From: Acidimicrobiales bacterium
GTDB taxonomy: Bacteria; Actinomycetota; Acidimicrobiia; Acidimicrobiales; VFJN01
Length of the DNA stretch: 64,000 nt
Direction of reading: 5' to 3'
Assembly (NCBI GenBank): GCA_036505485.1
Contig: DASXTK010000310.1
Coordinates: 4,999-68,998, forward strand
Made by a program: the position numbers and the translations under genes. The notes beneath the pieces were generated by a model, which saw only the letters and a list, made by a program, of their open reading frames with translations, searched no databases and was not told where the DNA came from. Shown one piece after another: positions 4,518 through 26,199 of the stretch (position 1 is its first letter; every line of letters begins with the position of its first letter).

Positions 4518-5213
4518 TCAGTTCCGCTCCTCGGTCATCTCGTTGGCCCAGACGGGGTGGTGGCGGCGGGCCCAGCGGGTGGGCATGCGGCCGGTGAACA
4601 TCGAGCGCAGGGCCGGAGGCTTGGAGATGGCCACCACGATGTGCCCGGCCACCACGAACCAGGTGGCGATGGCGATCCAGTCGTGGACGAAGGTGGCGCC
4701 GGTGCGGGTGGACACGCTGAAGTGCTCGAACCAGCGCATGATCCCGCCGGTGGCCATCATGACCGGGATCATCCCGGCGATGAACGCGGCGTTGGCCTTC
4801 TGCCCGGCGTTGAACTTGCCCACCTCGTTGCCGCCCTGGCGACCCCGGGACAACAGCCAGCGCCGGTCGGCCGGCGACCAGCGGTTCATGCGACGGATGT
4901 CAGCTCGGAGGGCGTCGCGCCCGCGTCCGACGTACGCCAGCACCAGAGGGACCGGCATGGCCAGGCCGCTGATGACGTGGACGTTCTTGAGGATGTCGCG
5001 CCGGCCCACTAGAGCCGAGAGCTGTCCGACGTAGAGGATCAGCCCGGTGATGGCCACGGTGAGGACCAGCGTGGCGGTGGTCCAGTGCAGGGCTCGCTCG
5101 GTCCCGGTGAAGCGGCGGAGGTCCTCCGTCTCCACGCTCGCGGCCGGAACCGCGAGCTCGGACTCAAGTGGGGTCATCGCCCTGCCGGCCGTTGGATCCG
5201 CCGACGAAGGCAT
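4518..5213 (-). CDS. b-type cytochrome membrane subunit (cytochrome b561 / MsrQ-like partner of the Mo enzyme)
   Basis: Multiple TM helices with conserved His (RALHWTT..., FVHDWIAIATW). Sits directly downstream of the molybdopterin oxidoreductase. An alternative ATG is at 5177. Confidence 0.6.
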   Translation of the reverse strand: MPSSADPTAGRAMTPLESELAVPAASVETEDLRRFTGTERALHWTTATLVLTVAITGLILYVGQLSALVGRRDILKNVHVISGLAMPVPLVLAYVGRGRDALRADIRRMNRWSPADRRWLLSRGRQGGNEVGKFNAGQKANAAFIAGMIPVMMATGGIMRWFEHFSVSTRTGATFVHDWIAIATWFVVAGHIVVAISKPPALRSMFTGRMPTRWARRHHPVWANEMTEERN

Positions 5214-5871
5214 CGACGTCGTAGCCGCGTTCCTCCCAGTAGCCCGGGATCTCCTGGTCGACGACCTCGATCCGCTCCAGCCACTTCAGCGACTTGTAGC
5301 CGTACATCGGGGCCACGTAGAGCCGCACCGGCCCACCGTGCTCGGCCGAGACCGGACCGTCGAGCATCTCGTGGGCCGCCATCACATCGTCCCGGCGGGC
5401 CTGCTCGAGGCTGAGGCTCTCGGTGTAGCTGCCGTCGAACGAGTACAACCGCAGGTGGGTGGCCCGGTCGGAGACCACGGCCTCGTCGAGCAGGTCACGC
5501 AGCAGGACTCCCCGCCAGTGCACCTCGGGCACCCGCCAGCCGGTCACGCACTGGAAGTCCCGGATCAGCTCGGTCTGGGGCCGCTGCTTCAGGTCGGCCA
5601 GGCTGAGCTCGAGCGGCTGGTCGACCAGTCCGTCGACGGTGAGGCGGTACTCGTCGTCGCTGCGCTCGGGCATGGGAAAGACGACGGTGTAGATGCGGAA
5701 CCGGCCGGCCGTCGGCACGAACGAGCTGAGGCCGGTCGGATCGTTCTGGGTAACTGGGCGGAGGAAGCGCTCCAACCCATCCTGGATGCGCGCGCCGGTC
5801 ACGATCCCGACCGCGCCGAACCCCAGCATGCCCAACACGATGCGACGACCGACCGGAGACTGGTCCTTCAC
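5164..5871 (-). CDS. Molybdopterin-dependent oxidoreductase (sulfite-oxidase/MsrP-like fold)
   Basis: FQCVTGWRVPEVHWRGVLLRDLL and LYVAPMYGYKSLKWL. The start was moved to GTG5871 (VKDQSPVGRRIVLG, Tat-like RR), because the ORF-track N-terminus runs through palindrome A1. Confidence 0.75.
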   Translation of the reverse strand: MKDQSPVGRRIVLGMLGFGAVGIVTGARIQDGLERFLRPVTQNDPTGLSSFVPTAGRFRIYTVVFPMPERSDDEYRLTVDGLVDQPLELSLADLKQRPQTELIRDFQCVTGWRVPEVHWRGVLLRDLLDEAVVSDRATHLRLYSFDGSYTESLSLEQARRDDVMAAHEMLDGPVSAEHGGPVRLYVAPMYGYKSLKWLERIEVVDQEIPGYWEERGYDVDAFVGGSNGRQGDDPT

Positions 5872-5883
5872 TGGGTCGAGGGT

Positions 5884-5936
5884 ACGAAATTGAGGTGTTT
5901 GACGCGCTATAAGCGCGTCAAACACCTCAATTTCGT
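5884..5936. repeat. Family A palindromic intergenic repeat, copy A1 (perfect 25-bp stem, 3-nt loop)
   Basis: acgaaattgaggtgtttgacgcgct-ata-agcgcgtcaaacacctcaatttcgt, read directly. The right arm contains the TGA stop of the ArsR gene. Confidence 0.9.
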
Positions 5937-6253
5937 AATGAGTCGCGCAGGCGGGCCAGGCGGTCGTCCCAGCGGCGGCCGGTGGCGGTGGCCCAGGCGG
6001 CCAGGTCGTCGAGTGGTTGGGATTGGGCCACGAACCGGGTCTCGCGCCCGGTCCGATCGGCCTTCACCAGCCCGGCCTCGCGCAGGACGATCAGATGGCG
6101 GGCGATGGCCTGCCGGCTGATCGGCACCTCCGAGGTGAGCGCGGTCGCCGTCGTCGGGCCGTACTCCGACACCGCCTGGAGGATGTTGCGGCGGGTCGGG
6201 TCGGCCAGCGCCGCGAACACCTCATCGCCAGGATCCGCGATGGGCAAGCTCAC
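5927..6253 (-). CDS. ArsR/SmtB-family transcriptional regulator
   Basis: FAALADPTRRNILQAV...ISRQAIARHLIVLREAGLV winged helix. GTG6253 start in a GTGA overlap with the upstream SRPBCC gene. Confidence 0.8.
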   Translation of the reverse strand: MSLPIADPGDEVFAALADPTRRNILQAVSEYGPTTATALTSEVPISRQAIARHLIVLREAGLVKADRTGRETRFVAQSQPLDDLAAWATATGRRWDDRLARLRDSLRN

Positions 6254-6727: not shown

Positions 6728-7366
6728 ATGTTGATCCCCACCGTCATCGAGAGCACCAGCCGAGGCGAACGGCACTCGGACATCTACTCCCGCCTGCTGC
6801 GGGAGCGGATCGTGTTCCTCGGCAGCCCGATCGACGACGACGTGGCCAACCTGCTGATCGCCCAGCTGCTCCACCTCGAGGGCGAGGACATGGAGCGCCC
6901 GATCAACCTCTACATCAACTCCCCCGGCGGCGACATGCTCGGGTTGTTCGCCATCTACGACGCCATCCAGTTCCTGGGACCACCGGTGCACACGGTCTGC
7001 GTGGGACAGGCCGCCTCGGCCGCCGCCGTCCTGCTGGCCGCGGGTGAGCCGGGGAACCGCTATGCCCTGCCCAACGCCCGGGTGCTGCTGCACCAACCGC
7101 ACGGGGCGGCCCAGGGTCAGTCGAGCGACCTGGAGATCGCGGTGAAGGAGATGGTCGTCATGCGGGAGCGGATGATCGACATCCTCACCGAGCGCTCAGG
7201 GCAGACCCGGGACCGGATCAAGACCGACATCGACCGGGACTTCATCCTGCGGGGCGAGGACGCCGTGGCCTACGGCGTGGTGGACGAGATCCTCACCCAT
7301 CGGGCTCCCCGGGTCTACACCGGCTTCCGACCCACCGGCCAGGAGTCCACCGCCGCGGTCAGTTGA
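6728..7366 (+). CDS. clpP: ATP-dependent Clp protease proteolytic subunit
   Basis: ERIVFLGSPIDDDVANLLIAQLL, GQAASAAAVLLAAG (Ser), LLHQPHG (His), DIDRDFIL (Asp). GAGGAAGG Shine-Dalgarno sequence upstream. Confidence 0.9.
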   Translation: MLIPTVIESTSRGERHSDIYSRLLRERIVFLGSPIDDDVANLLIAQLLHLEGEDMERPINLYINSPGGDMLGLFAIYDAIQFLGPPVHTVCVGQAASAAAVLLAAGEPGNRYALPNARVLLHQPHGAAQGQSSDLEIAVKEMVVMRERMIDILTERSGQTRDRIKTDIDRDFILRGEDAVAYGVVDEILTHRAPRVYTGFRPTGQESTAAVS

Positions 7367-8501
7367 TGCGCAACGCGGGGCTGTAGATGCGGGTGGGGGC
7401 CAGGTCGACGTCGATCGCCTGGGCGATCTGGTTGAAGATCTGGGCCACCTCGCCGTCGGGCTCGACCGCCACGAGAGGTGCGCCGCGGTCGGCCCCCTCC
7501 CGCAGCTCCGACACCAGCGGTACCTGACCGATCAGGGGCACGTCGAGGCGCTTGGCCAGCTCCTCGCCGCCGCCCTCGCCGAAGATGCGGTAGCGCTTGC
7601 CGTCGTCTCCGGTGAACCACGACATGTTCTCGATGACCCCTTTGACCTCGAGGTTCACCTTCTGGGCCATGAACGCGGCCCGCTGGGCCACCCGTTGGGC
7701 CGCGGGCTGCGGGGTGGTGACCACATAGACCTCGGCCCGGGGCAGGAACTGGGCCAGGCTGATCGAGATGTCACCGGTGCCCGGCGGGAGATCGACCACC
7801 AGGAAGTCGGGGTCGTCCCAGAAGACGTCGGTCAGGAATTGCTCCAACGCCTTGTGGAGCATGGGTCCCCGCCAGATCACCGGCTGGTCCTCGGCCGCGA
7901 AGAACCCCATGGAGATGCAGCGCACCCCATAGGACTCGGGCGGGACCAGCATCGAGTCGATCACCACCGGGGGATGCTCGACCCCCAGCATCCGGGGGAT
8001 GGAGAAGCCCCACACGTCGGCGTCGACCACGGCCACGTCCTTGCCCCGGCCGGCGAGAGATACCGCCAGGTTGGTGGTCACCGACGACTTGCCGACGCCG
8101 CCCTTCCCCGAGGCCACCAACAGGACCCGGGTCTTGCTGGCCGGGTCGGCGAAGGGGATGGCCCGGCCCTCGGCGTGGCCGTGCGCTGGTTGGCTTCCGG
8201 CCGTGGCGGCCGGATCGCCGTGGAGCTTGGTGCGCAAGGTGGCCCGCTCCTCATCGGTCATCACCGTGAAGTCGAGGTCCACGGTGTCGACGCCCTCCAG
8301 CCCCGTGACCGCGTCCTCGACCCGGCGGGTGATCTCGTTGCGGAGGGGACAGCCGGCCACGGTCAGGGCCACCAACACACCCACCTGGGCGCCGACGATG
8401 GTCACTTCCCGGACCATGTCGAGCTCCACGATGCTGCGATGGAGCTCCGGGTCCTCGACCGGACGGAGCGCATCGACAACCTGGGCTTCAGTGACCGACA
8501 T
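7359..8501 (-). CDS. apbC: Mrp/ApbC-type Fe-S cluster carrier ATPase
   Basis: N-terminal DUF59-like VEDPELHRSIVELDMV. P-loop ASGKGGVGKSSVTTNLA. Confidence 0.9.
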   Translation of the reverse strand: MSVTEAQVVDALRPVEDPELHRSIVELDMVREVTIVGAQVGVLVALTVAGCPLRNEITRRVEDAVTGLEGVDTVDLDFTVMTDEERATLRTKLHGDPAATAGSQPAHGHAEGRAIPFADPASKTRVLLVASGKGGVGKSSVTTNLAVSLAGRGKDVAVVDADVWGFSIPRMLGVEHPPVVIDSMLVPPESYGVRCISMGFFAAEDQPVIWRGPMLHKALEQFLTDVFWDDPDFLVVDLPPGTGDISISLAQFLPRAEVYVVTTPQPAAQRVAQRAAFMAQKVNLEVKGVIENMSWFTGDDGKRYRIFGEGGGEELAKRLDVPLIGQVPLVSELREGADRGAPLVAVEPDGEVAQIFNQIAQAIDVDLAPTRIYSPALRIN

Positions 8502-8578
8502 CTTGAGGTGTACTCCCAGTCGGGGCGACGACGACGTCGCAAGGGATTAGCACTACGACCATAGGTAGAATACCGGTC

Positions 8579-9313
8579 GTGGATCGGCCCCCTCTTTCGC
8601 CGACCGATTTCGCCTCGGTGGTCACAGCCATCACGTCGGCGTTCGGCGACCCCACCCGGCGGGCCATCTATCTCTACGTGCATGAGCACGCCGACGGTGC
8701 CACCGCCTCGGCGGTGGCTGAGCGCTTCGACCTCCATCCTAATGTGGCCCGCCATCACCTCGACAAGCTGGTGGCCGGCGGGTACGTCGTGGTGCTGCCA
8801 CCGAACCGGCCGTTGCAGGGCCAGGGCGCCGGTCGTCCGTCCAAGCACTACAAGGTGGTGGCCCCGGAGATCGCGCTGGACCTGCCGCTGCGCCACGACG
8901 ACGTCCTCACCTCGTTGCTGGGCCGGGCGCTGGCCGAGCTGGGGCCGGAACGGTCCGAGGCGCTGGCCGAGGATGTGGGCGTGGCCTACGGGCGGACCAT
9001 GGCCACCTCGATGTATCCGGGGTCCGAGGGTCACCGCTCGTTCCAGGTGGCGCTGCACGCGGTGGCCGAGGCTCTCACCGCTCACGGCTTCGCGGCACAC
9101 GCCGAGCGGATCGACGAAAAGCTGCAGATCGTCAACGAGAACTGCCCGTTCGGTGGTGTTGTGATCGACAACCCAGTGATCTGCGCGGTCGACCGGGGCA
9201 TGGTTCGGGGCATGCTCGAGACCCTGTACGGGCAGGAAATGGTGACCGAGACGGCGCTGTCCCTGCCCACGGGGGCCGACCGCTGCGTCACGACGGCGGT
9301 GCAGGGAAGCTGA
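8579..9313 (+). CDS. Winged-helix (ArsR/SufR-like) regulator with a C-terminal Cys motif
   Basis: FGDPTRRAIYLYV...VARHHLDKLVAGGYV. The C-terminus has NCPF-X..-ICAV (C-X12-C) plus a third Cys. Precedes the cysteine desulfurase. Confidence 0.7.
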   Translation: MDRPPLSPTDFASVVTAITSAFGDPTRRAIYLYVHEHADGATASAVAERFDLHPNVARHHLDKLVAGGYVVVLPPNRPLQGQGAGRPSKHYKVVAPEIALDLPLRHDDVLTSLLGRALAELGPERSEALAEDVGVAYGRTMATSMYPGSEGHRSFQVALHAVAEALTAHGFAAHAERIDEKLQIVNENCPFGGVVIDNPVICAVDRGMVRGMLETLYGQEMVTETALSLPTGADRCVTTAVQGS

Positions 9314-9354
9314 CCACCGGTCGGGTCTATCTCGATCACGCCTCCACGTCTCCG

Positions 9355-10473
9355 TTGCGGCCCGAGGCCCGGGAGGCCCTGGTGGCGTGGCTCGATCCTG
9401 GAAAGGCCGGGGATCCCAGCCGCATCCATCAGGACGGCTTGGAGGCGCGGCACGCGATCGAGGTTGCTCGGGACCAGGTGGCTGGGCTGCTCGGGGCCCG
9501 CAACCGCGAGGTGTGCTTCACCAGCGGCGCCACCGAGGCCATCGTGGCCGCCTGCTGGGGCGCGGCCGAACGTGGCCGCCACCAGGTGGTCCCGGCGATC
9601 GAGCACTCGGCGGTACGGATGGCTGCCGAACGCCACGGCGACGTGAGCCTGGTGGCTCCCGACCGGCTCGGACGGATGGACCCGGACGCGGTGTTGGCCG
9701 CGGTCCGGCCCGACACCGCTGTGGTCCACCTGCAGTGGGGCAACCACGAGGTCGGCACGACCCAGCCGGTGGCCGAGGTGGCGGCAGAGTGCCGGGATCG
9801 GGGCGTGCTCGTCCACATCGACGCGGCCCAGGCTGCCGGACGGGTTCCCATCGACTTCGCCGGGCTCGGCGCCGACCTGCTGTCCATCAGCGCCCACAAG
9901 CTGGGCGGACCGGCCGGTGTCGGTGCCCTGCTGATCCGCCGGGGCCTGCGGCTGCGGCCGCTCCTGGTGGGTGGCGATCAGGAGCGGGCCCGCCGCGCCG
10001 GCTACGAGAACGTCCCCGGTCTGGTCGGTCTCGGCGCCGCCTGTGCGGCTTTGTCCGACCCGGATCGGCTGGAGGCCGAGGCTGCGACCCAGCGCCGGCT
10101 CAGCCAGCGGATCATCGACGCTGTCGCCGGCACGGACGGGCTGCAGCAGTACGGCGACCCTGAGCACCGGTTGCCGCACATCGTCTGTCTGGGGGTGGCC
10201 GGCATCGAACCCCAGGCTGTGCTCTTGGGGTTGGACCGGGCCGGAATCAGCGCCCACTCGGGGAGCGCCTGCTCGTCCGAGGCCCTGGAGCCGTCGCCGG
10301 TGCTGGAGGCCATGGGCGTCGACGCCCACCACAGCCTCCGCCTCTCCACCGGCTGGTCCTCCACCGACACCGACATCGACCGCTTCCTCGACGCCCTCCC
10401 CAAGGTCCTCATCGACCTCCGCGCCCTGACTGTGGGGTCAAGGAATGTCGATGGCATAGTGCCGGGGCCGTGA
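9355..10473 (+). CDS. Cysteine desulfurase (class V aminotransferase, NifS/IscS-like)
   Basis: PLP-Lys motif SISAHKLGGPAGVGAL. The in-frame family motif VYLDHASTSP lies upstream of the ORF-track TTG start, so the true start is probably near 9310. Confidence 0.85.
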   Translation: MRPEAREALVAWLDPGKAGDPSRIHQDGLEARHAIEVARDQVAGLLGARNREVCFTSGATEAIVAACWGAAERGRHQVVPAIEHSAVRMAAERHGDVSLVAPDRLGRMDPDAVLAAVRPDTAVVHLQWGNHEVGTTQPVAEVAAECRDRGVLVHIDAAQAAGRVPIDFAGLGADLLSISAHKLGGPAGVGALLIRRGLRLRPLLVGGDQERARRAGYENVPGLVGLGAACAALSDPDRLEAEAATQRRLSQRIIDAVAGTDGLQQYGDPEHRLPHIVCLGVAGIEPQAVLLGLDRAGISAHSGSACSSEALEPSPVLEAMGVDAHHSLRLSTGWSSTDTDIDRFLDALPKVLIDLRALTVGSRNVDGIVPGP

Positions 10474-10937
10474 AGTTGTACGTCGTCCGTCACGCCGCCG
10501 CCGGGAGTCGGAGCGCCTGGACCGGCGACGACCGGCTGCGTCCGCTGAGCAAGAAGGGCCGCCGTCAGGCCGCCGAGCTGGCGGAGCTCCTCGCCGATGC
10601 CGGGCTCGAGCGGCTCGTGTCCAGCTCGTACGTCCGCTGCATCCAGACCCTGGAGCCCCTGGCCGAACGGACCGGGTCGGAGGTCGAGATCGACGACCGG
10701 TTGGCCGAGGGCAGCGACGGGGCGGCGGCGTTGCAGCTGGCCGAGGAACTGCGGGATGCGGGCGTGCGAGCCGCGGCGCTGTGCAGCCACGGCGATGTGG
10801 TCCCGGAGCTTCTGTCGCTGCTCAAGGTGACCGGCACGGCGTTCCACCAGCCGCTGGTGTGGCCCAAGGGCTCGGTGTGGGCTCTGAACAGCAACGGCAC
10901 CCACTGGACCGACGCCGAGCTACTGACCCGCGCCTGA
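10470..10937 (+). CDS. Histidine phosphatase superfamily protein (SixA-like)
   Basis: LYVVRHAAAG...RPLSKKGRRQA...CSHGDV. GTGA overlap with the desulfurase stop. Confidence 0.75.
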   Translation: MKLYVVRHAAAGSRSAWTGDDRLRPLSKKGRRQAAELAELLADAGLERLVSSSYVRCIQTLEPLAERTGSEVEIDDRLAEGSDGAAALQLAEELRDAGVRAAALCSHGDVVPELLSLLKVTGTAFHQPLVWPKGSVWALNSNGTHWTDAELLTRA

Positions 10938-10950
10938 CGAAACGAAGGCC

Positions 10951-11044
10951 GAGGCAATGCTGCCCACCCGAGCGAGGCTGAGGCGATGGTGGCCATATAC
11001 GGCCACTATCGCCTCAGCCGCTCGATCATGGGCACCATTGCCTC
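10951..11044. repeat. Extended (~94 nt) imperfect palindrome between convergent genes
   Basis: gaggcaatgctgccca...ctgaggcgatggtggcc-atatac-ggccactatcgcctcag...tgggcaccattgcctc. The core arms share ctgaggcg/cgcctcag with family A. Confidence 0.75.
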
Positions 11045-11094
11045 GCCACATCGCCCCTCGGCCCGACCTTCCCTACGTGCCTCGTTGGTCGTTC

Positions 11095-11868
11095 CTAGCC
11101 GCCGGCTGTCGTTGGGGTCGCCTCGATCTGGGTGCGGAGTTGCTCGGCGGCTTGGGCCAGTTCGGCCGGGGGGCCGAGCTCGTCCAGGCGGTCGAGGGAC
11201 TCCAGGGCCACGTCGGGGCGGCCCAGCCGGTTGAAGGCCACGGCGATGAAGAAGTGGACGTCGGGGTACTCGGGATCGGTCTCCGCGGCGTGGATCATGG
11301 TGGTCAGCCCACTGCCGTCTCCGTTCTGGAACTGCAGCCAGCCCTTGAACGTAAGCGCCAGCACGTTGTCGGGCTCGTCGGCCAGGACGTCGTCATAGAT
11401 GGCGATGGCGTCGTCCAGCCGTCCGGCCTGGGTGAGCGAGGCGGCTTCGTCGAACCACTCCGGCATGTCGGTCTGGCCCGCGCTGGAACCGGCGTTCTCC
11501 GATTGCCGGATGGCGCCGGTCACGGTGTCCCCCTCGCCCCGCCGTCCCAGCCCGAGGGCCAGCACCAGCCCGGTGGCCACAGCGAACAGGCCGATACCGC
11601 CGGCGATCGCCAGGCGGCGCCATTCCGGCTTGGCCGATGAGCCCGACGACGGTGCCACCCGGGCCTCGTGGGACTCGATGGCCCGCAGGACCTTGGCGGC
11701 CCGGGCGGTGTAGTCGTCGCGCAGCTCGGCGTAGTCGTGCTCATCGACGTCGCCAGCGGCGTGTTCTCGCTCCAGGTCGTCAAGCGACGCCAGCAGGAAG
11801 TCGCGCTGGTCCTCCAGGGCGGCCAGCTCGTCGGGTCCGAGCGGACGGACGTCGGAGCGGGTGCTCAC
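11095..11868 (-). CDS. ccmI: CcmI/CycH-like TM + TPR protein (last gene of the ccm operon)
   Basis: One TM helix (WRRLAIAGGIGLFAVATGLVLALGL) and a TPR-like C-terminus (AGRLDDAIAIYDDVLADEPDNVLALTFKGW). GTGA overlap with ccmH. Confidence 0.55.
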   Translation of the reverse strand: MSTRSDVRPLGPDELAALEDQRDFLLASLDDLEREHAAGDVDEHDYAELRDDYTARAAKVLRAIESHEARVAPSSGSSAKPEWRRLAIAGGIGLFAVATGLVLALGLGRRGEGDTVTGAIRQSENAGSSAGQTDMPEWFDEAASLTQAGRLDDAIAIYDDVLADEPDNVLALTFKGWLQFQNGDGSGLTTMIHAAETDPEYPDVHFFIAVAFNRLGRPDVALESLDRLDELGPPAELAQAAEQLRTQIEATPTTAGG

Positions 11869-12350
11869 GACGGTCCGGTCGACGCGGTGTGCAGCTCGTC
11901 CAGGGCCTGCTCGACCAGCTCCCGGTCGGCGTCGCTGGCGTGCGCCCCGCCCTGGCCCTTCCAGCGCCGGAACACCAGGAACAGGCCGGTCACGGCGATC
12001 ACGAACCCGGCGATCGGCAGCGCCCAGACCAACCCCTCCAGCCCCGAGCGCTCGGGGGTGAGCAGGATCCGGTCGCCGTAGCTGCCGGCCAGCTCGTCCC
12101 GGATCTCCTCGTCGGTGAAACCCTCGGAGATGCGCTGGTCGATGGTGGCTCGGATGCCCCGGGCCGCGCTGGAGTTGGAGTCGGCCACCGACTGACCGGC
12201 GCAGGTCGGGCACATGACCGACTCCGACACCCGCTGGGCCCGAGCCTCGGGGGAGACCGGACCGCCACGGTCGAGCAGGCCCACCGCGACCAGTCCGACT
12301 ACCACGGCCACCATGACCACCCAGCCCAGACGACGTGCTCCCGGCTTCAC
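11865..12350 (-). CDS. ccmH: Cytochrome c-type biogenesis protein CcmH
   Basis: MCPTCAGQSVADSNSSAARGIR (CXXC motif) plus a C-terminal TM helix. GTGA overlap with ccmG. Confidence 0.8.
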   Translation of the reverse strand: MKPGARRLGWVVMVAVVVGLVAVGLLDRGGPVSPEARAQRVSESVMCPTCAGQSVADSNSSAARGIRATIDQRISEGFTDEEIRDELAGSYGDRILLTPERSGLEGLVWALPIAGFVIAVTGLFLVFRRWKGQGGAHASDADRELVEQALDELHTASTGPS

Positions 12351-12970
12351 GGCTGCTGGGCCTCGCGCTCGGCCTCGCGGATCGACTCCTCGATCCCAGC
12401 CTTGGTCACTCCGCCGATGAGCTTGTCCCGCACCACACCCTGAGGGTCGATCACGTAGGTCTCGGGGACCTGGGGCACGCCGTAGGCGGTTGCGATCAGA
12501 CCTTGGCCGTCGAGGACCACAGGCCACCCGCCGCCGTTCCGGTCGAAGAACTCACGAGCGACGTCGGGGTCGTTCTCGTAGAGCACGCTGACCAGCACCG
12601 CGTCACCGGTCTGGCTGTGTTCGTTGTTGAACGCCTCGAGCTGGGGATGCTCCTCGCGGCACGGCAGGCACCAGGTGGCGAAGAAGTTGACCACCACCCA
12701 CTGGCCCCGGTGGTCGCCGACATCGAAGCTGCCGCCGTCCAGCGTCTCTCCGGCCAGCGGCTTGGCCGGCTTGCCGATCAAAGGTGAGGTGCCCTGGCGG
12801 TCGGTGGCCGGGTCGCGGGTGGCCAGCACCACCACGAAGGCCGCAGCCACGAGACCCACGACCAGCGAGATGGCCAGCGCGGTGTGGCGCCGGGTCGGGA
12901 GCTCTACGTCGTCGGCGTCGGGCGCCTCGTCGGCGGCGTCCACCTCTTCGACCTCGTCCACGTCGGCCAT
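12347..12970 (-). CDS. ccmG: Thiol:disulfide oxidoreductase CcmG/DsbE
   Basis: FFATWCLPCREEHPQL thioredoxin motif and an N-terminal TM helix. ATGA overlap with ccmF. Confidence 0.85.
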   Translation of the reverse strand: MADVDEVEEVDAADEAPDADDVELPTRRHTALAISLVVGLVAAAFVVVLATRDPATDRQGTSPLIGKPAKPLAGETLDGGSFDVGDHRGQWVVVNFFATWCLPCREEHPQLEAFNNEHSQTGDAVLVSVLYENDPDVAREFFDRNGGGWPVVLDGQGLIATAYGVPQVPETYVIDPQGVVRDKLIGGVTKAGIEESIREAEREAQQP

Positions 12971-14991
12971 CAGACCCCCACCTCGACCTTGTCGCCGGCA
13001 TCACCAGCATCCCCGGCGTCATCGGACGCGGGCTTCGACTCGGGCTCGGTGACCCGGAGCGGCTCGGACACCGGCCGCAATGGATCACGCCGCCGCCCCG
13101 GGAACGCCGCCAGCAGGGTGCCGAACGCCATGACCCCTCCGCCGATCCACAGCCAGGCGATCAGCGGCTGGACGATCACCCGCAGGACCACCGGGTCGCC
13201 GGGCTTGGTCCCGTCGGGGGTCCGCAACAGCGCCACGAACACGTCGCGGATCGGTCCGGTGCGGATGGCCGGCGTGCCGATCTCCTGGCCCCCGCCGCTG
13301 AACTCGGACAGCGCCGGCTCGACCAGGTGACCGTCGACCACGACCTGGGCTCGGGTGGAGGACTTGTTGGACTCCTGCACCTCACGCATGCCTTGGAAGG
13401 TGACCTCGTGACCCGCGACCACCCGGGTGTCGCCCTCGACCATGGTCATCTCGCGGTCGATGTCGTAGCTCTTGGACGCAGCCAGGGCCACCGCGATCAT
13501 CACCACGCCCAGGTGGACGATCATGCCGCCGTTGGTGCGCCCGACCAGTCCCCGCCAGCCTTGGCGCCGGGTGGCCAGGATGACCTGACGCAACGCGGCA
13601 CCGGCGGCGAACCCGCCCAGTCCGAAGGCCACCACCGGGGCCAGTCCTCGGGCGCCCAAGACGACGGCTAGCGCCATGGCCCCGACGCCGGCCCAGCCGG
13701 GCCAGAACAGCCGCTGGGACAGCAGCTCGGTCGACGCCTTGCGCCACGGCAGCACCGGCGCCACCGCCATCAGGAACAGCAGGGCCAGGCCGATGGGCAG
13801 GGTCATGCGGTCGAAGTACGGCGGCCCGACCGAGAGACGCTTGTCGTTGATGGCCTCGACGATCAGCGGGAAGACCGTTCCGACGAGGACCACGAAGGCG
13901 AACCCGGCGAACAGCACGTTGTTGGCCAGGAACGCGCCCTCACGGGACGCGGGCGAGTCGATGCGGCCGGGGGCCCGAAGCTTGTCGCCCCGCCAACCGA
14001 TCAGACCCAGCGTGACCACCACGGTGAGGCCGAAGAAGCTCAGCAGCCAGGGTCCGATGGTGCTCTGGGTGAAGGCATGGACCGAATCGAGGGTGCCGGA
14101 CCGGGTCAGGAACGTGCCCAGGATGGTGAGGCTGAAGGTGGCACAGAGCAGCGACAGGTTCCAGACCCGCAGCATCCCCCGCCGTTCCTGCACCATCACC
14201 GAGTGCAGGTAAGCGGTTCCGGTCAGCCACGGCAGCAGCGAGGCGTTCTCCACCGGATCCCAGGCCCAGTAGCCACCCCACCCCAGCACCGCGTAGCTCC
14301 ACCAGGCGCCGAGGACGATCCCGATGGTGAGACAGCCCCAGGCGATCAGGGTCCAGCGCCGGGTCTCCAACAGCCAGCCCTCGCCCAGGCGCCCGGTGAC
14401 CAGCGCAGCCACGGCGAAGGCGAAGGGCACGGTGAACCCCACGTAGCCTAGGTAGAGCACCGGCGGATGGATCGCCATCAGCCAGTGGTTCTGCAGCAGC
14501 GGGTTGGGGCCGGTTCCGTCGAAGCCGGCCGGCGGGCTGAACGAGTGGAACGGGTTGGCCGGGAACAGCAACAGGGCGAAGAAGAAGGTGCAGACCCCGA
14601 GCATGGTCAGCATGGCCCAGCCGACCAGGGGGTCGGACAGGCGATGGCGGAACCGCCAGGCCACCAGCGTGGTGTAGCCGGCCAGCACCAGCACCCACAG
14701 CAGGATCGAGCCCTCCAACGCCGACCACAGGGCGGCGAAGTTGTAGAGCCGCGGGGTCTTGCTGGAGCCGACCTCGGCCACGTAGCGGACCGTGTAGTCC
14801 CGGGTGATCAGGGCCCGCTCCATGGCGGCGAAGGCGATGCCGGCGCCGAGCAGCGTCATCCACGCATAAGTGCGGCCCACCGCCAGCAGGTTGGGGCGGT
14901 TGCGCCGCAGACCGATGGCCAGGGTCAGCACCCCGCCGATCGAGGCTGCGAATCCCAGCACGATGCCGCCGGTGCCCAGCGAGGCGTTCAC
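12970..14991 (-). CDS. ccmF: Cytochrome c heme lyase subunit CcmF
   Basis: WWD motif GWGGYWAWDPVENASLLPWL in a polytopic membrane protein. The GTG14991 start gives a GTGA overlap with ccmE. Confidence 0.9.
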   Translation of the reverse strand: MNASLGTGGIVLGFAASIGGVLTLAIGLRRNRPNLLAVGRTYAWMTLLGAGIAFAAMERALITRDYTVRYVAEVGSSKTPRLYNFAALWSALEGSILLWVLVLAGYTTLVAWRFRHRLSDPLVGWAMLTMLGVCTFFFALLLFPANPFHSFSPPAGFDGTGPNPLLQNHWLMAIHPPVLYLGYVGFTVPFAFAVAALVTGRLGEGWLLETRRWTLIAWGCLTIGIVLGAWWSYAVLGWGGYWAWDPVENASLLPWLTGTAYLHSVMVQERRGMLRVWNLSLLCATFSLTILGTFLTRSGTLDSVHAFTQSTIGPWLLSFFGLTVVVTLGLIGWRGDKLRAPGRIDSPASREGAFLANNVLFAGFAFVVLVGTVFPLIVEAINDKRLSVGPPYFDRMTLPIGLALLFLMAVAPVLPWRKASTELLSQRLFWPGWAGVGAMALAVVLGARGLAPVVAFGLGGFAAGAALRQVILATRRQGWRGLVGRTNGGMIVHLGVVMIAVALAASKSYDIDREMTMVEGDTRVVAGHEVTFQGMREVQESNKSSTRAQVVVDGHLVEPALSEFSGGGQEIGTPAIRTGPIRDVFVALLRTPDGTKPGDPVVLRVIVQPLIAWLWIGGGVMAFGTLLAAFPGRRRDPLRPVSEPLRVTEPESKPASDDAGDAGDAGDKVEVGV

Positions 14992-15545
14992 GGGTTCGAG
15001 CTCCCGCCTTCGCTGTTGCTGTCCGAGCCTTTGTCGGCGTTGGACATCCGCTGGTCGTAGTCGTCGCGGGCCTTGTACTCCGAGGAGTGCTTGATCAGCA
15101 TGTGGTCGCTGTCGAAGAACTCGCCCGAGGCGTCCCAATGGCCTTCGAGCACCACCGGGATGCCCGGCTCGAACATGTCCTGCGCGTCGCCGGAGTGGTG
15201 GACCGGAACGGTCACGCCGTTGTAGGTGACATCGAAGTTCACCCCGTCGTCGGTTCGGACCGCACCGTCGACCACCTCACCCTGGAGCCGGAAGCGCTTG
15301 TCGCCCAGGTCGGCCTTCTGGGCCACCGCCTCGTCGGCGTTGAGGAAGTACAAGGTGGCGTCGGTCAGCCCCTTGACCACCAGCCAGCCCATGGCCACCA
15401 GCGCGATCCCCACCACCGCCAGCGGCAGCCAGCGGCGACGACTCGGATCCCGGGGCCGGGGCGCCGGCGCCAGGTCGATGTCGTCATCGCTGGGGACCTG
15501 GTCCGGGTCGTCGACGACGGTGCGGGTGCGGGGGGTCAGCTCCAC
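14988..15545 (-). CDS. ccmE: Heme chaperone CcmE
   Basis: FRLQGEVV...VPVHHSG..PGIPVVLEGHW...MLIKHSSEY (heme-binding His-x3-Tyr region). N-terminal TM helix. Confidence 0.85.
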   Translation of the reverse strand: MELTPRTRTVVDDPDQVPSDDDIDLAPAPRPRDPSRRRWLPLAVVGIALVAMGWLVVKGLTDATLYFLNADEAVAQKADLGDKRFRLQGEVVDGAVRTDDGVNFDVTYNGVTVPVHHSGDAQDMFEPGIPVVLEGHWDASGEFFDSDHMLIKHSSEYKARDDYDQRMSNADKGSDSNSEGGSSNP

Positions 15546-15691
15546 CGGCGGTCTCCCGGGGGGACCCGGCGTGACAGCTTGCGGCCCCGACGCAGCGTGG
15601 CGAAGGCGTACACCCCCACCAACCCGATGGCCCCCAGCCACCCGGTGGCGACATAGCCGGGGTAGTCCATTGCGAGGAGCATGCTGGTCAT
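15536..15691 (-). CDS. ccmD: Small heme exporter protein CcmD
   Basis: 51 aa, single TM helix, MTSMLLAMDYPGYVATGWLGAIGLVGVYAFATLRRGRKL. ATGA overlap with ccmC. Not listed as a separate ORF in the track. Confidence 0.6.
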   Translation of the reverse strand: MTSMLLAMDYPGYVATGWLGAIGLVGVYAFATLRRGRKLSRRVPPGDRRWS

Positions 15692-16488
15692 ACCGGCTGG
15701 GCCTCCGTCGTCTTCGTGGTCTGGGGGACGCCGGCTTCGGCCCGGCGGGCCGCTACCGCGGCCTCGAGATCGTGCTGTTCGACCTGCTGCTCCAGCCAGG
15801 CCACCCGGAAGCGGTGGATGAGGAGCCAAGCGAAGACCAGGGCTCCGGCGAGCATCCCCACGGCGAAGGCGGTCAGCATCTCGCCCTCGATCGACGGCTC
15901 GAGCTTCATCAGGGTCGAGGTCTGGTGCAGGGACCGCCACCACTCCACCGAGCGGTTGACGATGATGACGTTGGGCACCAGTAGGAGGCCCATCACGGCG
16001 GCCCGGGCCGACCCGGCCGGCGAGATCTCCACCCGGCGCAGGGCCAGATAGCCCACCAGCATCACCGCCAGCAGGGCGGTCGACGTGAGCCGGGCGTCCC
16101 AGGTCCAGAACGTGCCCCAGGTGACGTTGCCCCACAGCGAACCGGTGACCAGGGTGATGGTCACGAAGACCAGGCCCAGCTCGGCACTGGCCGCAGCCAG
16201 CGCGTCCCAGCCCCGGCTGCGGCGGCGCAGCCACATGCCCGACGCGAAGGCGGTGAGGAAGCAGCCGGTGTAGGCCAGGATCGCCGACGGCACGTGCACG
16301 TAGAAGAGCCGCACCGCATCGCTTTGGTTGACGTCGGGCGGGCTCCACACCAGGCCGTAGAGCGCCCAGAGCACCAGCGTGGCCAGGGCCGCCAGCCCCA
16401 ACACCCGGGTGGCCGGCGAGCCGGTGTGGTCCGGGGCGGTGGTGTCGACGTCGACGTCGGCGTCGAGGTCGGGGGAACGGTCGGTCAC
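15688..16488 (-). CDS. ccmC: Heme exporter protein CcmC
   Basis: WGTFWTWDARLT tryptophan-rich motif. GTG16488 start in a GTGA overlap with ccmB. Confidence 0.85.
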   Translation of the reverse strand: MTDRSPDLDADVDVDTTAPDHTGSPATRVLGLAALATLVLWALYGLVWSPPDVNQSDAVRLFYVHVPSAILAYTGCFLTAFASGMWLRRRSRGWDALAAASAELGLVFVTITLVTGSLWGNVTWGTFWTWDARLTSTALLAVMLVGYLALRRVEISPAGSARAAVMGLLLVPNVIIVNRSVEWWRSLHQTSTLMKLEPSIEGEMLTAFAVGMLAGALVFAWLLIHRFRVAWLEQQVEQHDLEAAVAARRAEAGVPQTTKTTEAQPV

Positions 16489-17153
16489 GAGTCCTCCAGG
16501 AGTGCGCCGTAGGCGAGGGATCCGGCGACGAGGTAGACGACAGCGAATCCGCCGACCAGACCGCACCAGGCCCAGCCTGCGGTGACAGTGGTTCCGAGCG
16601 CCGACTCGAACGCCCGGGTGGCACCGATCAGGACCGGGGCCAGCACCGGTAGGAGGAGCACCGGCAGCAGCGTGTCCCGCGCCCGCAGCCCTCCCACCAG
16701 AGCGCCGTACAAGGTACCGGCGGCAGCGATCGCCACGGTAGCGGCGACCAGGGTGGCCGCCAGCAGACCGAAGCCGCTGAGCTCGGCGTCGTAGAGCACG
16801 GCCACGCCGACGGCCAGCAGGATCTCCAGGGCCAGCAGCTCGGCGGCGACCGCCGCCACCTTGCCGAGGAACACCGCCGGGGGTTCGAGTCCGGACAGGC
16901 GGAGCGCGTCGCGGGTGCCGTCGGCGTCGTCGAGCGCGGCGCTGCGATTGATGGCGAGGACCCCGGCCAGCAGGACCGCCACCCAGTACAGCCCCGGGGT
17001 GGCCTTCTCCAGGATGCCCCGGTCGGGGTCCAGGGCGAAGGCGAACAGCAGCAGGATCAGCACCGCGAACGGAGCGACCTGGTTGGCGGTCACCCGGCTC
17101 CGGAGCTCGATGCGCAGGTCGCGCTCGGCCACGAGGGCGATGTCACGCCACAC
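16485..17153 (-). CDS. ccmB: Heme exporter permease CcmB
   Basis: 222-aa polytopic protein between ccmA and ccmC. RDLRIELRSRVTANQVAPFAVL N-terminus. Confidence 0.8.
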   Translation of the reverse strand: MWRDIALVAERDLRIELRSRVTANQVAPFAVLILLLFAFALDPDRGILEKATPGLYWVAVLLAGVLAINRSAALDDADGTRDALRLSGLEPPAVFLGKVAAVAAELLALEILLAVGVAVLYDAELSGFGLLAATLVAATVAIAAAGTLYGALVGGLRARDTLLPVLLLPVLAPVLIGATRAFESALGTTVTAGWAWCGLVGGFAVVYLVAGSLAYGALLEDS

Positions 17154-17829
17154 CGGCGGCCTCCCGGCTGGGGCTCGGGTCAGGGTCCGCGGTAAGACCT
17201 GCCACGCCGCCGATCAACTCGACCGTACGGTCGGCCAGGGCTTCGGCCCGGTCCAGCTCGTGGGACGAGAACAAGACGGTCGCCCCTTGCTTGGCGGCTT
17301 GGCGGACCAGACCGTCGAGCTGGTCGCGGGTGTCGCGGTCCAGCCCGGCGTGGGGCTCGTCCAGCAGCCACAGCTCGGGTCGACGGGCCAGCAGACAGGC
17401 CAGCGAGGTGCGCCGGCGTTGTCCGGCCGACAGTCGCCGCACGGGAACCTTCCCCAAAGTTCCGTCGAGCCCGACCACGGCCAGCGCGGCGTCGATCTCG
17501 GCCCGGCTGGCCCGGCAGGCTCTGCCCCAGAACCGCACGTTCTCGTCGGCGGTGAGGTCGTCGTAGAGCCCGGTGGAGTGGGCCAACAACCCGACCCGGG
17601 AGCGCACCGGCCGCGGGTCCTGGCACAGGTCGAAGCCCAGGACGACGGCGTCACCCGACACCACCGGGACCAGCCCGGCGCAGGCGCGCAGCAACGTGGT
17701 CTTACCTGCGCCGTTGGGGCCGCGGAGGAGGACGATCTGACCCCGGGCGACATCCAAGTCGATCCCGGCGAGGGCTGGGAACCGTCCGAGCAGGGCAACC
17801 GCAGCACGGAAGTGAACAACCAGCTCCAT
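17143..17829 (-). CDS. ccmA: Heme exporter ABC ATPase CcmA
   Basis: Walker A GPNGAGKTTLLR, signature LSAGQRRR, Walker B LWLLDEP. Start at ATG17829. Confidence 0.85.
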   Translation of the reverse strand: MELVVHFRAAVALLGRFPALAGIDLDVARGQIVLLRGPNGAGKTTLLRACAGLVPVVSGDAVVLGFDLCQDPRPVRSRVGLLAHSTGLYDDLTADENVRFWGRACRASRAEIDAALAVVGLDGTLGKVPVRRLSAGQRRRTSLACLLARRPELWLLDEPHAGLDRDTRDQLDGLVRQAAKQGATVLFSSHELDRAEALADRTVELIGGVAGLTADPDPSPSREAAGVA

Positions 17830-17955
17830 GGCGATTGCCTGAGGGTACTGAGGCCGTTTCCACTGGACCAAGACGCGTCGGCCTGATGTGACCGCCGACA
17901 CGCCCGGTGGCGGTGCTCCAAGGGGTGGGGGTGGGCGGGGTTAGCCTGCCCGGCG

Positions 17956-18876
17956 ATGCGATTGGCCCGGGTCCTGGGTGCGATCGGACGTACCTGCATC
18001 ACCGCGGGCGTGCTGATCCTCCTCTTCGTCGCGTACCAGCTCTGGGGTACCGGCCTGCACGAGGCCCGGGCCCAGAGCGCGCTCGAGGACGAGTTCGCCG
18101 ACGACCTGGCCAGCGCCGGCGCCGCTTCGACCGACGGCACGGACGGGGTTCCCGGCGACAACGCCAACGCGCGGCCGGCCACCACCGTTCCGCCGTCTCC
18201 CCCGTCGCCCGACGAGGGTGGAGCGGTGGCCCACATCGTGATCCCCGCCATCGGCGTGGACAAGATCGTGGTGGAGGGCGTGACGGTCGACGACCTCAAG
18301 CGGGGACCCGGCCACTACCCCGACAGCCCGGTCCCCGGCCAGCCCGGCAACGCCGCCATCGCCGGCCACCGGACCACGTACGGGGCGCCGTTCAATCGCA
18401 TCGACGAGCTGTCCGAGGGCGACGAGATCCTGATCACGACCCTGCAAGGCTCGTTCCGCTACAAGGTCAGCGAGCAGCAGATCGTCAGCCCGGACCAGGT
18501 CGAGGTGCTCAACGACTTCGGCGACAACCGGCTCACGCTCACTGCCTGTAACCCCAAGTACTCGGCCCGCGAGCGCATCGTCATCGTGGCCAAGCTGGCC
18601 GAGGAACCGACGCCGGCACCGCCCACCACCGCACCCGCACCGTCCTCCGAGCCCGACCAGCCGGTCTCATTGGACGGCGGCCTGTCAGGCGAGCGGGCAT
18701 CGGCGTGGCCCGCGGTGTTGTTGGGCCTGGCTTGCGCCCTGATCTGGCTGGCCGCCTGGATCGCTACCAAGTTCACCAAGAAGATCGTTGCCTACGGCGT
18801 CGGCGGCCCGATCTTCTTCGTTGTCCTGTTCTTCTTCTACGAGAGCTTCTACCGCCTGTTGCCGGCCAACTTCTGA
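17956..18876 (+). CDS. srtE: Class E sortase with an extra C-terminal 2-TM extension
   Basis: AIAGHRTTYGAPF (His), LTLTACNPKYSARERIV (Cys, Arg). N-terminal TM helix plus two C-terminal TM helices, ending YRLLPANF. Confidence 0.85.
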   Translation: MRLARVLGAIGRTCITAGVLILLFVAYQLWGTGLHEARAQSALEDEFADDLASAGAASTDGTDGVPGDNANARPATTVPPSPPSPDEGGAVAHIVIPAIGVDKIVVEGVTVDDLKRGPGHYPDSPVPGQPGNAAIAGHRTTYGAPFNRIDELSEGDEILITTLQGSFRYKVSEQQIVSPDQVEVLNDFGDNRLTLTACNPKYSARERIVIVAKLAEEPTPAPPTTAPAPSSEPDQPVSLDGGLSGERASAWPAVLLGLACALIWLAAWIATKFTKKIVAYGVGGPIFFVVLFFFYESFYRLLPANF

Positions 18877-26168: not shown

Positions 26169-26199
26169 CGACGGCGGAGGATCGACTGCCGGCCGTAAC

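What the first reader, a model, noticed from the sequence alone, without database searches (positions are those of the whole stretch)
11095..17829. Complete System I (Ccm) cytochrome c maturation operon, in proteobacterial gene order, in an actinobacterial context
Nine consecutive minus-strand genes read ccmA-B-C-D-E-F-G-H-I, each with a diagnostic motif. CcmC has WGTFWTWDARLT. CcmF has WGGYWAWDPVEN. CcmE has LIKHSSEY. CcmH has CPTC. CcmG has WCLPC. As I recall, the textbook pathway in Actinobacteria is System II (ResB/CcsB-ResC/CcsA plus CcdA), with System I typical of alpha- and gamma-proteobacteria, Deinococcus, archaea and plant mitochondria. The order is the E. coli order and the GC content is host-like. 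Six of the eight junctions are 4-nt ATGA/GTGA overlaps (16485, 15688, 14988, 12970, 12347, 11865). This implies tightly coupled translation of the whole machine.
Basis: partly seen in the sequence, partly recalled or inferred. Interest (0 to 1): 0.55.

Follow-up and report, generated by a model that had tools for sequence, protein, structure and literature searches.

The report
Ordinary Ccm operon in Acidimicrobiales
This is a complete, intact cytochrome c maturation (System I, ccmABCDEFGHI) operon, but it is the normal, inherited equipment of the actinobacterial class Acidimicrobiia and is already annotated in public databases, so it is ordinary rather than an anomaly.

Summary
Nine consecutive minus-strand genes at 11095-17829 encode CcmA, B, C, D, E, F, G, H and a CcmI-like TPR protein. 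All quoted motifs are present, and every catalytic residue known from E. coli is conserved. One detail is wrong: five junctions are 4-nt overlaps, not six, because F/G is a 1-nt TGATG overlap.

The implied interpretation, an out-of-place proteobacterial-style system in an actinobacterium, does not hold. The window is an NCBI MAG labelled 'Acidimicrobiales bacterium', and both PGAP and IMG already name CcmF and CcmE here. A scan of one genome per species found 42 Acidimicrobiia-type species, closed chromosomes among them, with the same colinear operon. Many share the window's flanking genes (sortase upstream; HisPhos, aminotransferase, HTH and Mrp downstream). Their CcmF proteins form one clade with the window (NJ bootstrap 100, no outsiders). 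CcmF divergence tracks that of the neighbouring Mrp gene (r = 0.84). GC is host-like.

The A-B-C-E-F-G-H order also occurs in Gemmatimonadota, Myxococcota, Chloroflexota and Rokubacteria, so it is not a proteobacterial signature. One mild point remains: reviews still describe System I as Gram-negative/archaeal, and I found no paper on Acidimicrobiia.

The parts
17143..17829 (-). ccmA, ABC-type ATPase of the heme-handling module (228 aa, ATG 17829)
   Evidence: PF00005 5e-26. TIGR01189 ccmA 147.8 bits, above the 131.6 cut-off. JGI makes the same call.
16485..17153 (-). ccmB, membrane subunit (222 aa; about 6 hydrophobic segments); overlaps ccmA by 11 nt
   Evidence: PF03379 CcmB 2.6e-35. TIGR01190 3.1e-18, below cut-off. 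Hydropathy.
15688..16488 (-). ccmC, WWD-domain heme-handling protein (266 aa); GTGA overlap with ccmB
   Evidence: TIGR01191 ccmC 141.6 bits against CcsB 37.3 bits. The WWD motif WGTFWTWDARLT is present. His65 and His188 align with E. coli H60 and H184 and are conserved in 71-73 of 73 sequences. PGAP names this protein 'CcsA'.
15536..15691 (-). ccmD, 51-aa single-pass membrane protein; ATGA overlap with ccmC
   Evidence: No direct HMM hit. Conserved between ccmC and ccmE in at least 17 related loci at 34-53% identity. 11 of the 18 aligned sequences hit PF04995 CcmD, best E 4.9e-7. The GY..(A/G)W start of the membrane helix matches E. coli GGYAFFVW.
14988..15545 (-). ccmE, membrane-anchored heme chaperone (185 aa); 10-nt overlap with ccmD
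   Evidence: PF03100 1.7e-18. The HxxxY motif (His153/Tyr157) aligns with E. coli H130/Y134 and is invariant in 72 of 72 sequences. One N-terminal hydrophobic segment, residues 39-57.
12970..14991 (-). ccmF, heme lyase / holocytochrome c synthase core (673 aa); GTGA overlap with ccmE
   Evidence: PF16327 4.4e-57 plus PF01578 3.2e-36. TIGR00353 433 bits. Matches the Thermus thermophilus CcmF structure 6ZMQ end to end, E 2.1e-133. His175/263/305/493 align with E. coli H173/261/303/491 and are invariant in 82 of 82 sequences.
12347..12970 (-). ccmG, membrane-anchored thioredoxin-like reductase (207 aa); 1-nt TGATG overlap with ccmF
   Evidence: AhpC-TSA 7.7e-21 and Redoxin 1.5e-18. ResA and DsbE subfamily hits are below cut-off. 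The WCLPC cysteines align with E. coli C80/C83 and are invariant in 73 of 73 sequences. One hydrophobic segment, residues 31-49.
11865..12350 (-). ccmH, CxxC subunit of the lyase (161 aa from GTG 12350, or 149 aa from ATG 12314)
   Evidence: PF03918 1.7e-24. The CPTC cysteines align with E. coli C43/C46 and are invariant in 73 of 73 sequences. Two hydrophobic segments, residues 8-26 and 108-126.
11095..11868 (-). ccmI-like gene: N-terminal cytoplasmic acidic region, one membrane helix, extracytoplasmic TPR domain (257 aa); GTGA overlap with ccmH
   Evidence: Only generic TPR families hit. 2 of 12 orthologues weakly hit TIGR03142 ccmI (E 0.0012) and 1 of 12 hits NrfG. The gene is kept directly after ccmH in 29 of 34 related loci with room for it. 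The assignment rests on position and architecture, not on a family-specific match.

Best explanation
This is the resident, vertically inherited System I (Ccm) cytochrome c maturation operon of an Acidimicrobiales bacterium (class Acidimicrobiia, phylum Actinomycetota). It most likely works as in E. coli and Thermus.

Inferred mechanism (from the E. coli and Thermus literature, not shown here):
- CcmC, with CcmD, presents heme on the outer face of the membrane through its WWD domain and two histidines.
- Heme becomes covalently bound to His153 of the membrane-anchored chaperone CcmE.
- The CcmAB ATPase releases holo-CcmE.
- Holo-CcmE delivers heme to CcmF, whose four conserved histidines hold a b-heme and the incoming heme.
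- CcmG and CcmH keep the apocytochrome CXXCH cysteines reduced through their CxxC pairs.
- The TPR protein (CcmI-like) holds the apocytochrome.

Every extracytoplasmic component carries its own membrane anchor, so the machine can work on the outer face of the membrane of a Gram-positive-type cell. Overlapping stop and start codons at all eight junctions suggest coupled translation from one transcript.

Shown here: gene content, order, motifs, residue conservation, phylogenetic and syntenic conservation. Inferred: activity, mechanism, envelope type.
For: Family assignments for eight of the nine genes, and for ccmD through its orthologues. All E. coli catalytic residues are conserved: CcmC H60/H184/WWD, CcmE H130/Y134, CcmF H173/261/303/491, CcmG C80/C83, CcmH C43/C46. 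CcmF matches the solved Thermus CcmF structure at E 2e-133.

Host identity: this exact sequence is in NCBI as 'Acidimicrobiales bacterium', with CcmF and CcmE already named.

Lineage-typical:
- All 42 closest species-level CcmF hits (50-70% identity) are Acidimicrobiia/Actinomycetota, including closed chromosomes OY730477.1, OZ242033.1, OZ242297.1, OZ252012.1 and NZ_OZ244925.1.
- The operon is colinear in 41 of 42.
- Where the contig has room, ccmA is present in 31 of 33, ccmH in 33 of 34, ccmG in 32 of 34 and ccmI in 29 of 34.
- Flanks are shared: a divergent sortase in 18 of 31 loci with room, and among the 42 loci Mrp in 16, HisPhos in 14, the HTH gene in 11 and the aminotransferase in 8.
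- The 43-sequence CcmF clade has NJ bootstrap 100 and contains no outsiders.
- CcmF identity correlates with that of the neighbouring Mrp gene, r = 0.84, n = 16.
- GC is 0.707 against 0.684 for the rest of the window.
Against: - Most NCBIfam scores are below the curated equivalog cut-offs, so the proteins are divergent from characterised ones.
- The window's own CcmD has no direct HMM hit, and the ninth gene cannot be told apart from generic TPR proteins.
- The window holds no c-type cytochrome substrate (no CXXCH in any coding-like frame) and no CcdA/DsbD reductant supplier.
- No promoter or terminator consensus was found.
- The fraction of Acidimicrobiia that carry the operon was not measured. 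No cultured isolate of the class is among them.
- There are no experimental data.
Confidence: 0.9

Rival explanations
1. The operon was recently acquired by horizontal transfer from a proteobacterium into an actinobacterium that would otherwise use System II. This is the reading implied by the first reader.
For: Reviews assign System I to Gram-negative bacteria, archaea and plant mitochondria, and System II to Gram-positives and mycobacteria (PMC3601427; PMC13170271). The gene order equals that of E. coli.
Against: - The nearest CcmF relatives are all Acidimicrobiia at 50-70% identity. The next phyla (Gemmatimonadota, Limnocylindria, Myxococcota, Deinococcales) stand at about 40-47%.
- The Acidimicrobiia clade is monophyletic with bootstrap 100.
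- The flanking genes are syntenic across the class.
- CcmF divergence co-varies with that of the neighbouring Mrp gene.
- GC is host-like.
- The same gene order occurs in many non-proteobacterial phyla.
Confidence: 0.03
2. The genes are a dedicated NrfEFG-type heme lyase set for a CXXCK nitrite reductase rather than the general maturation system.
For: CcmF also scores against the NrfE models (412 and 353 bits). The only NCBIfam hit for CcmH is NrfF (50 bits), and one CcmI orthologue weakly hits NrfG.
Against: All Nrf scores are below their cut-offs (412 against 927, 353 against 394, 50 against 159). The operon carries the full heme-delivery half, ccmABCDE, which Nrf lyase sets lack. No nrfA or any CXXCH/CXXCK protein lies in the 64 kb. 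The CcmF/NrfE subfamily model scores highest (433 bits).
Confidence: 0.03
3. The operon is not actinobacterial at all, but sits on a mis-binned or chimeric metagenomic contig from a Gram-negative organism.
For: The window and nearly all relatives are metagenome-assembled genomes.
Against: The same operon, with the same neighbours, lies inside closed 2-3.9 Mb chromosomes assigned to Acidimicrobiales (L021, L031, L032, L033, L038). The same contig sequence was assembled independently by JGI. Composition is uniform across the junctions. The neighbours are typical of Actinomycetota.
Confidence: 0.01

Closest known systems
Canonical System I, ccmABCDEFGH of Escherichia coli (and ccmABCDEFGHI of bacteria with a separate ccmI)
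   Same: Same genes in the same order. All catalytic residues are conserved. CcmE has the His-type HxxxY motif and CcmH is present.
   Different: - CcmH and the TPR protein are separate genes here. Together they reproduce the topology of the fused E. coli CcmH, split in the cytoplasmic loop (inferred from hydropathy).
- The TPR protein has one membrane helix and a roughly 85-aa acidic cytoplasmic N-terminus.
- CcmE and CcmG carry N-terminal cytoplasmic extensions of about 35 and 30 aa.
- The host is a Gram-positive-type actinobacterium.
- Sequences are too divergent to reach most equivalog cut-offs.
Thermus thermophilus CcmF (PDB 6ZMQ)
   Same: Full-length match, residues 3-642 against 21-658, E 2.1e-133. 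The four heme-ligand histidines are conserved in E. coli and in all 82 aligned CcmF sequences; Thermus itself was not in that alignment.
   Different: Different phylum. No structure or biochemistry exists for the Acidimicrobiia protein.
System I* (archaea, Desulfovibrio): CcmE with Cys in place of His, and no CcmH
   Same: Shares ccmABCEF.
   Different: The window has the His-type CcmE (His153) and a CcmH with CxxC, so it is not the variant described in PMC3601427.
System II (ResB/CcsB plus ResC/CcsA plus CcdA/ResA), the pathway known from Mycobacterium, Corynebacterium and Bacillus
   Same: CcmC and CcmF share the WWD (PF01578) domain with CcsA. CcmG resembles ResA. PGAP even labels the window's CcmC 'CcsA'.
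   Different: No ResB or CcdA homologue is in the window. The CcmC model scores 141.6 bits against 37.3 for the System II model. CcmE, CcmB, CcmH and CcmF_C are specific to System I.

Membership tests
System I (Ccm) cytochrome c maturation | CcmA ABC ATPase plus CcmB membrane partner | tested here: met
   TIGR01189 ccmA 147.8 bits, above the 131.6 cut-off. PF03379 CcmB 2.6e-35.
System I (Ccm) cytochrome c maturation | CcmC with a WWD motif flanked by two heme-ligand histidines | tested here: met
   WGTFWTWDARLT is present. His65 and His188 align with E. coli H60 and H184. TIGR01191 gives 141.6 bits, below its subfamily cut-off of 186.
System I (Ccm) cytochrome c maturation | CcmD, a small single-pass protein encoded between ccmC and ccmE | tested here: met
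   A 51-aa ORF sits in the right position. The window's copy has no direct hit, but 11 of the 18 aligned sequences hit PF04995, best E 4.9e-7, and the window copy is 34-53% identical to its orthologues. Membership is therefore transitive. hhalign against the single E. coli sequence was not significant.
System I (Ccm) cytochrome c maturation | CcmE heme chaperone with the covalent heme-binding His in an HxxxY motif | tested here: met
   PF03100 1.7e-18. His153/Tyr157 align with E. coli H130/Y134 and are invariant in 72 of 72 sequences.
System I (Ccm) cytochrome c maturation | CcmF with a WWD domain, the CcmF_C domain and four conserved histidines | tested here: met
   PF01578 plus PF16327. H175/263/305/493 are conserved. 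PDB 6ZMQ match at E 2.1e-133.
System I (Ccm) cytochrome c maturation | CcmH with CxxC, and the thioredoxin-like CcmG with CxxC | tested here: met
   PF03918 1.7e-24. The CPTC and WCLPC cysteines align with E. coli C43/C46 and C80/C83. CcmG reaches only family-level (ResA/DsbE) scores, below cut-off.
System I (Ccm) cytochrome c maturation | CcmI / C-terminal CcmH TPR apocytochrome chaperone | tested here: inconclusive
   Only generic TPR matches. TIGR03142 is hit weakly by 2 of 12 orthologues. Position after ccmH is conserved in 29 of 34 loci.
System I (Ccm) cytochrome c maturation | Produces holocytochrome c (covalent heme attachment to CXXCH) | not testable with these tools
   This needs complementation of an E. 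coli ccm deletion strain, or heme staining in the native host.
System I* variant | CcmE with Cys replacing the heme-binding His, and no CcmH | tested here: not met
   His153 is present and CcmH is present. Definition taken from PMC3601427.
System II (CcsBA / ResBC) | ResB/CcsB protein plus CcsA/ResC, with no CcmE | tested here: not met
   No ResB, CcsA or DsbD/CcdA family hit in any coding-like ORF of the 64 kb. CcmE is present. Whether System II exists elsewhere in the genome could not be tested.
NrfEFG dedicated heme lyase | NrfE/F/G scores above cut-off and linkage to nrfA (CXXCK heme site) | tested here: not met
   NrfE 412 bits against a 927 cut-off. NrfF 50 bits against 159. No nrfA or CXXCH/CXXCK ORF in the window.

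The most novel reading that the evidence does not exclude
Acidimicrobiia may be a whole class of Gram-positive-type Actinomycetota that matures its c-type cytochromes with canonical System I, possibly as the only pathway, System II having been lost or never present. If so, System I entered at or before the base of the class. This contradicts the review-level rule 'System I = Gram-negatives, archaea and plant mitochondria; System II = Gram-positives', and I found no paper that discusses it. It would offer a natural case of the full His-type Ccm machine working without an outer membrane. The conserved divergent sortase next to ccmA might point to wall-anchored substrates.
Probability: 0.35. Interest if true: 0.3.

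Novelty: already known. Interest (0 to 1): 0.12.

Why it matters
It matters little as a discovery. The system is textbook System I. The exact proteins are already deposited and named by NCBI PGAP and JGI/IMG, and the operon is the norm in its lineage.

The useful outcomes are corrective:
1. The rule of thumb 'Actinobacteria use System II' applies to Mycobacterium- and Corynebacterium-type Actinomycetes, not to Acidimicrobiia.
2. The ccmABC(D)EFGH order is a widely shared bacterial arrangement, not a proteobacterial marker.
3. Automatic annotation here mislabels CcmC as 'CcsA', leaves CcmD as 'hypothetical' and leaves the CcmI-like gene as a generic TPR protein. Pathway-inference tools could therefore miscall the system in this class.

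Tried and rejected
- **Literature.** Six full-text searches and six readings found no paper on System I in Acidimicrobiia. They gave only general distribution statements. The MMBR 2009 review (PMC2738134) is not held.
- **Promoter/terminator scan** of 10800-18100 found nothing. That is uninformative in a 70% GC actinobacterium.
- **CXXCH search** in coding-like frames of the whole window found none.
- **Pfam scan of the other genes** in the window for ResB, CcsA or CcdA found none. This covers only 64 kb.
- **hhalign** of the CcmD alignment against the single E. coli CcmD sequence was not significant, probability 0.6%. The per-member Pfam scan was the informative test.
- **A PDB profile search** with the CcmI-like alignment returned only generic or designed TPR proteins.
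- **System II elsewhere.** I could not test for System II in the rest of this genome or in relatives.
- **Large protein-database searches.** I did not run them. The genome scan and the exact-match look-up had already settled identity and distribution.

Full report
**Observation.** The minus strand between 11095 and 17829 carries nine consecutive intact ORFs. An independent JGI gene call on an identical 13.7-kb metagenome contig gives the same nine genes with the same outer limits.

Pfam assigns them as follows:

| Gene | Pfam hit | E-value |
|---|---|---|
| CcmA | ABC transporter ATPase (ABC_tran) | 5e-26 |
| CcmB | PF03379 | 2.6e-35 |
| CcmC | Cytochrom_C_asm (PF01578) | 2.3e-24 |
| CcmE | PF03100 | 1.7e-18 |
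| CcmF | CcmF_C (PF16327) plus Cytochrom_C_asm | 4.4e-57 / 3.2e-36 |
| CcmG | AhpC-TSA / Redoxin | 7.7e-21 |
| CcmH | PF03918 | 1.7e-24 |
| ninth gene | TPR_16 / TPR_19 | ~1e-10 |

NCBIfam agrees: ccmA 147.8 bits (above cut-off), ccmC 141.6 bits against only 37.3 for the System II CcsB model, CcmF/NrfE 433 bits, and several CcmE models. Most scores lie below the curated equivalog cut-offs, so the proteins are divergent from the characterised proteobacterial ones.

**Catalytic residues.** I fetched the E. coli K-12 ccm operon and aligned its proteins with the window's and with those of up to 80 related loci. Every residue known to matter in E. coli is conserved in the window and in essentially all relatives:
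- CcmC H60, H184 and the WWD tryptophans and aspartate
- CcmE H130 and Y134 (window His153 and Tyr157)
- CcmF H173, H261, H303 and H491
- CcmG C80 and C83
- CcmH C43 and C46

CcmF also matches the solved Thermus thermophilus CcmF structure (6ZMQ) over its full length, E 2.1e-133.

**CcmD.** The 51-aa ORF between ccmC and ccmE gets no HMM hit itself. It is conserved in that position at 34-53% identity in at least 17 related loci. Of the 18 aligned sequences, 11 hit Pfam CcmD (PF04995), best E 4.9e-7. I accept it as CcmD by transitivity.

**The ninth gene.** Its identification as ccmI rests on position and architecture only. It has a 4-nt overlap with ccmH and is kept after ccmH in 29 of 34 loci with room for it. 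It has a cytoplasmic N-terminus, one membrane helix and an external TPR domain. HMM and PDB searches return only generic TPR proteins. Just 2 of 12 orthologues touch the ccmI model weakly.

**Junctions.**
- B/C, C/D, E/F, G/H and H/I are 4-nt GTGA/ATGA overlaps.
- A/B overlaps by 11 nt and D/E by 10 nt.
- G/H depends on the start chosen. GTG 12350 gives a positively charged N-terminus before the membrane helix. JGI chose ATG 12314, which leaves a 32-nt gap.

So all or nearly all junctions overlap, and coupled translation is plausible. It is also commonplace in high-GC operons.

**Host.** An exact-sequence look-up shows that CcmF, CcmE, CcmC, CcmD and the TPR protein are NCBI proteins HEY3142582, -583, -585, -584 and -579. 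They come from an 80-kb contig of a MAG labelled 'Acidimicrobiales bacterium'. PGAP already names CcmF ('heme lyase CcmF/NrfE family subunit') and CcmE. It calls CcmC 'CcsA', CcmD 'hypothetical' and the ninth gene 'tetratricopeptide repeat protein'. IMG names CcmF, CcmE and 'heme exporter protein C'. Other genes in the window fit Actinomycetota: a sortase, a PdtaS-type kinase, DUF2510 proteins and ArsA-like ATPase pairs.

**Is it unusual for the lineage?** No. A scan of one genome per species (GTDB r232) with CcmF returned at least 599 relatives, of which the best 80 were kept.
- The 42 closest, at 50-70% identity, are all labelled Acidimicrobiia, Acidimicrobiales, Iamia, Poriferisodalaceae, Aldehydirespirator or generic Actinomycetota.
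- They include closed chromosomes of 2-3.9 Mb.
- The next-best hits, at about 40-47%, are Gemmatimonadota, Limnocylindria, Myxococcota, Deinococcales and others.

tblastn of the window's proteins against these loci shows the operon colinear in 41 of 42.

| Gene | Loci with the gene / loci with room on the contig |
|---|---|
| ccmA | 31 / 33 |
| ccmH | 33 / 34 |
| ccmG | 32 / 34 |
| ccmI | 29 / 34 |
| divergent sortase upstream | 18 / 31 |

The neighbours are shared too. Among the 42 loci, the window's downstream genes recur as follows: Mrp/ApbC in 16, HisPhos in 14, the HTH_20 regulator in 11 and the class-V aminotransferase in 8.

A neighbour-joining CcmF tree (645 columns, E. coli included, 100 bootstraps) puts the window and these 42 sequences in one clade, with bootstrap 100 and no outsider. 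Across loci, CcmF identity to the window correlates with identity of the adjacent housekeeping Mrp gene, r = 0.84, n = 16. Operon GC is 0.707 against 0.684 for the rest of the window.

This is the pattern of an old, vertically transmitted operon.

**Gene order.** The A-B-C-E-F-G-H order recurs in Gemmatimonadota, Myxococcota, Limnocylindria/Chloroflexia, Rokubacteria and others. It is not a proteobacterial signature.

**Other systems.** The operon is not System I*, which has a Cys-type CcmE and no CcmH (PMC3601427), because His153 and CcmH are present. It is not System II: no ResB, CcsA or CcdA is in the window, and the CcmC model far outscores the System II model. It is not a dedicated Nrf lyase, because the scores are below cut-off, ccmABCDE are present and no nrfA or CXXCH ORF is nearby. 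Whether System II also exists elsewhere in the genome could not be tested.

**Mechanism (inferred from the E. coli and Thermus literature, named families only).**
- CcmCD load heme onto His153 of membrane-anchored CcmE.
- CcmAB release holo-CcmE.
- CcmF, with CcmH, ligates heme to reduced CXXCH.
- CcmG and CcmH supply the reducing CxxC relay.
- The TPR protein holds the apocytochrome.

Hydropathy shows a membrane anchor on every external component, which is compatible with a cell that lacks an outer membrane.

[quoted passage not shown] They place System II in Gram-positives and mycobacteria (PMC13170271; PMC9145763). Six full-text searches found no paper on System I in Acidimicrobiia. The generalisation fails for this class, and that is visible in routine database annotation.

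**Verdict.**
The operon is real, complete and in an actinobacterium. It is lineage-typical, vertically inherited and already annotated.
- Interest is low.

Noticed in passing
window 17956-18876 (+): A sortase gene (PF04203, TLTAC motif) is transcribed divergently from ccmA. This sortase-ccmA arrangement is kept in 18 of 31 related Acidimicrobiia loci with room for it. It may be plain inherited synteny, or it may hint at a link with wall-anchored proteins. Sortase identity does not co-vary with CcmF identity (r = 0.16).
   Followed up: partly
L076 (Tersicoccus phoenicis), L071 (Haloechinothrix sp.), L061 (Microthrixaceae MAG), L075: Two isolate genomes of class Actinomycetes also carry System I clusters, in the order ccmA-B-C-E-F-H-(I)-G. 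Their CcmF proteins form a separate clade, bootstrap 100, together with a Microthrixaceae sequence, outside the main Acidimicrobiia clade. System I is therefore scattered more widely in Actinomycetota than the textbook view suggests.
   Followed up: partly
window 15688-16488, 15536-15691 and 11095-11868 (-): The public annotation of this very sequence is imprecise. PGAP names CcmC 'cytochrome c biogenesis protein CcsA' (a System II name), leaves CcmD as 'hypothetical protein', and calls the CcmI-like gene a generic 'tetratricopeptide repeat protein'.
   Followed up: yes
window 31669-31764 (+): A selenocysteine tRNA gene (tRNA-Sec, anticodon TCA; Rfam RF01852, 65.8 bits) is the only tRNA or Rfam hit in the window. 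It implies that this organism can make selenoproteins.
   Followed up: no
window ~31140-31581 (+): This looks like an aquaporin (MIP) gene remnant. One NPA motif lies in one frame (31223-31435) and a second NPA motif in another frame (up to 31581). The total length is far short of a full MIP, so it looks frameshifted and truncated. It sits just upstream of the tRNA-Sec gene.
   Followed up: partly
window 4518-6063 (-): Adjacent genes encode a molybdopterin-binding oxidoreductase (PF00174) and a cytochrome b561-type membrane protein (PF01292), an MsrP/MsrQ-like pair.
   Followed up: no
window 7359-10937: The block just downstream of the operon holds an Mrp/ApbC Fe-S carrier, an HTH_20 regulator, a class-V aminotransferase (cysteine desulfurase-like) and a histidine phosphatase. 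It keeps its position next to ccm in many Acidimicrobiia genomes.
   Followed up: partly
window 25146-26841 (+): Two tandem genes each begin with a DUF2510 domain. Function unknown.
   Followed up: no
window 59001-61000 and 42016-44247 (-): GC falls to 0.633 at about 59-61 kb, where there are only short, weakly coding ORFs. Separately, a 743-codon coding-like ORF at 42016-44247 has no Pfam hit.
   Followed up: no
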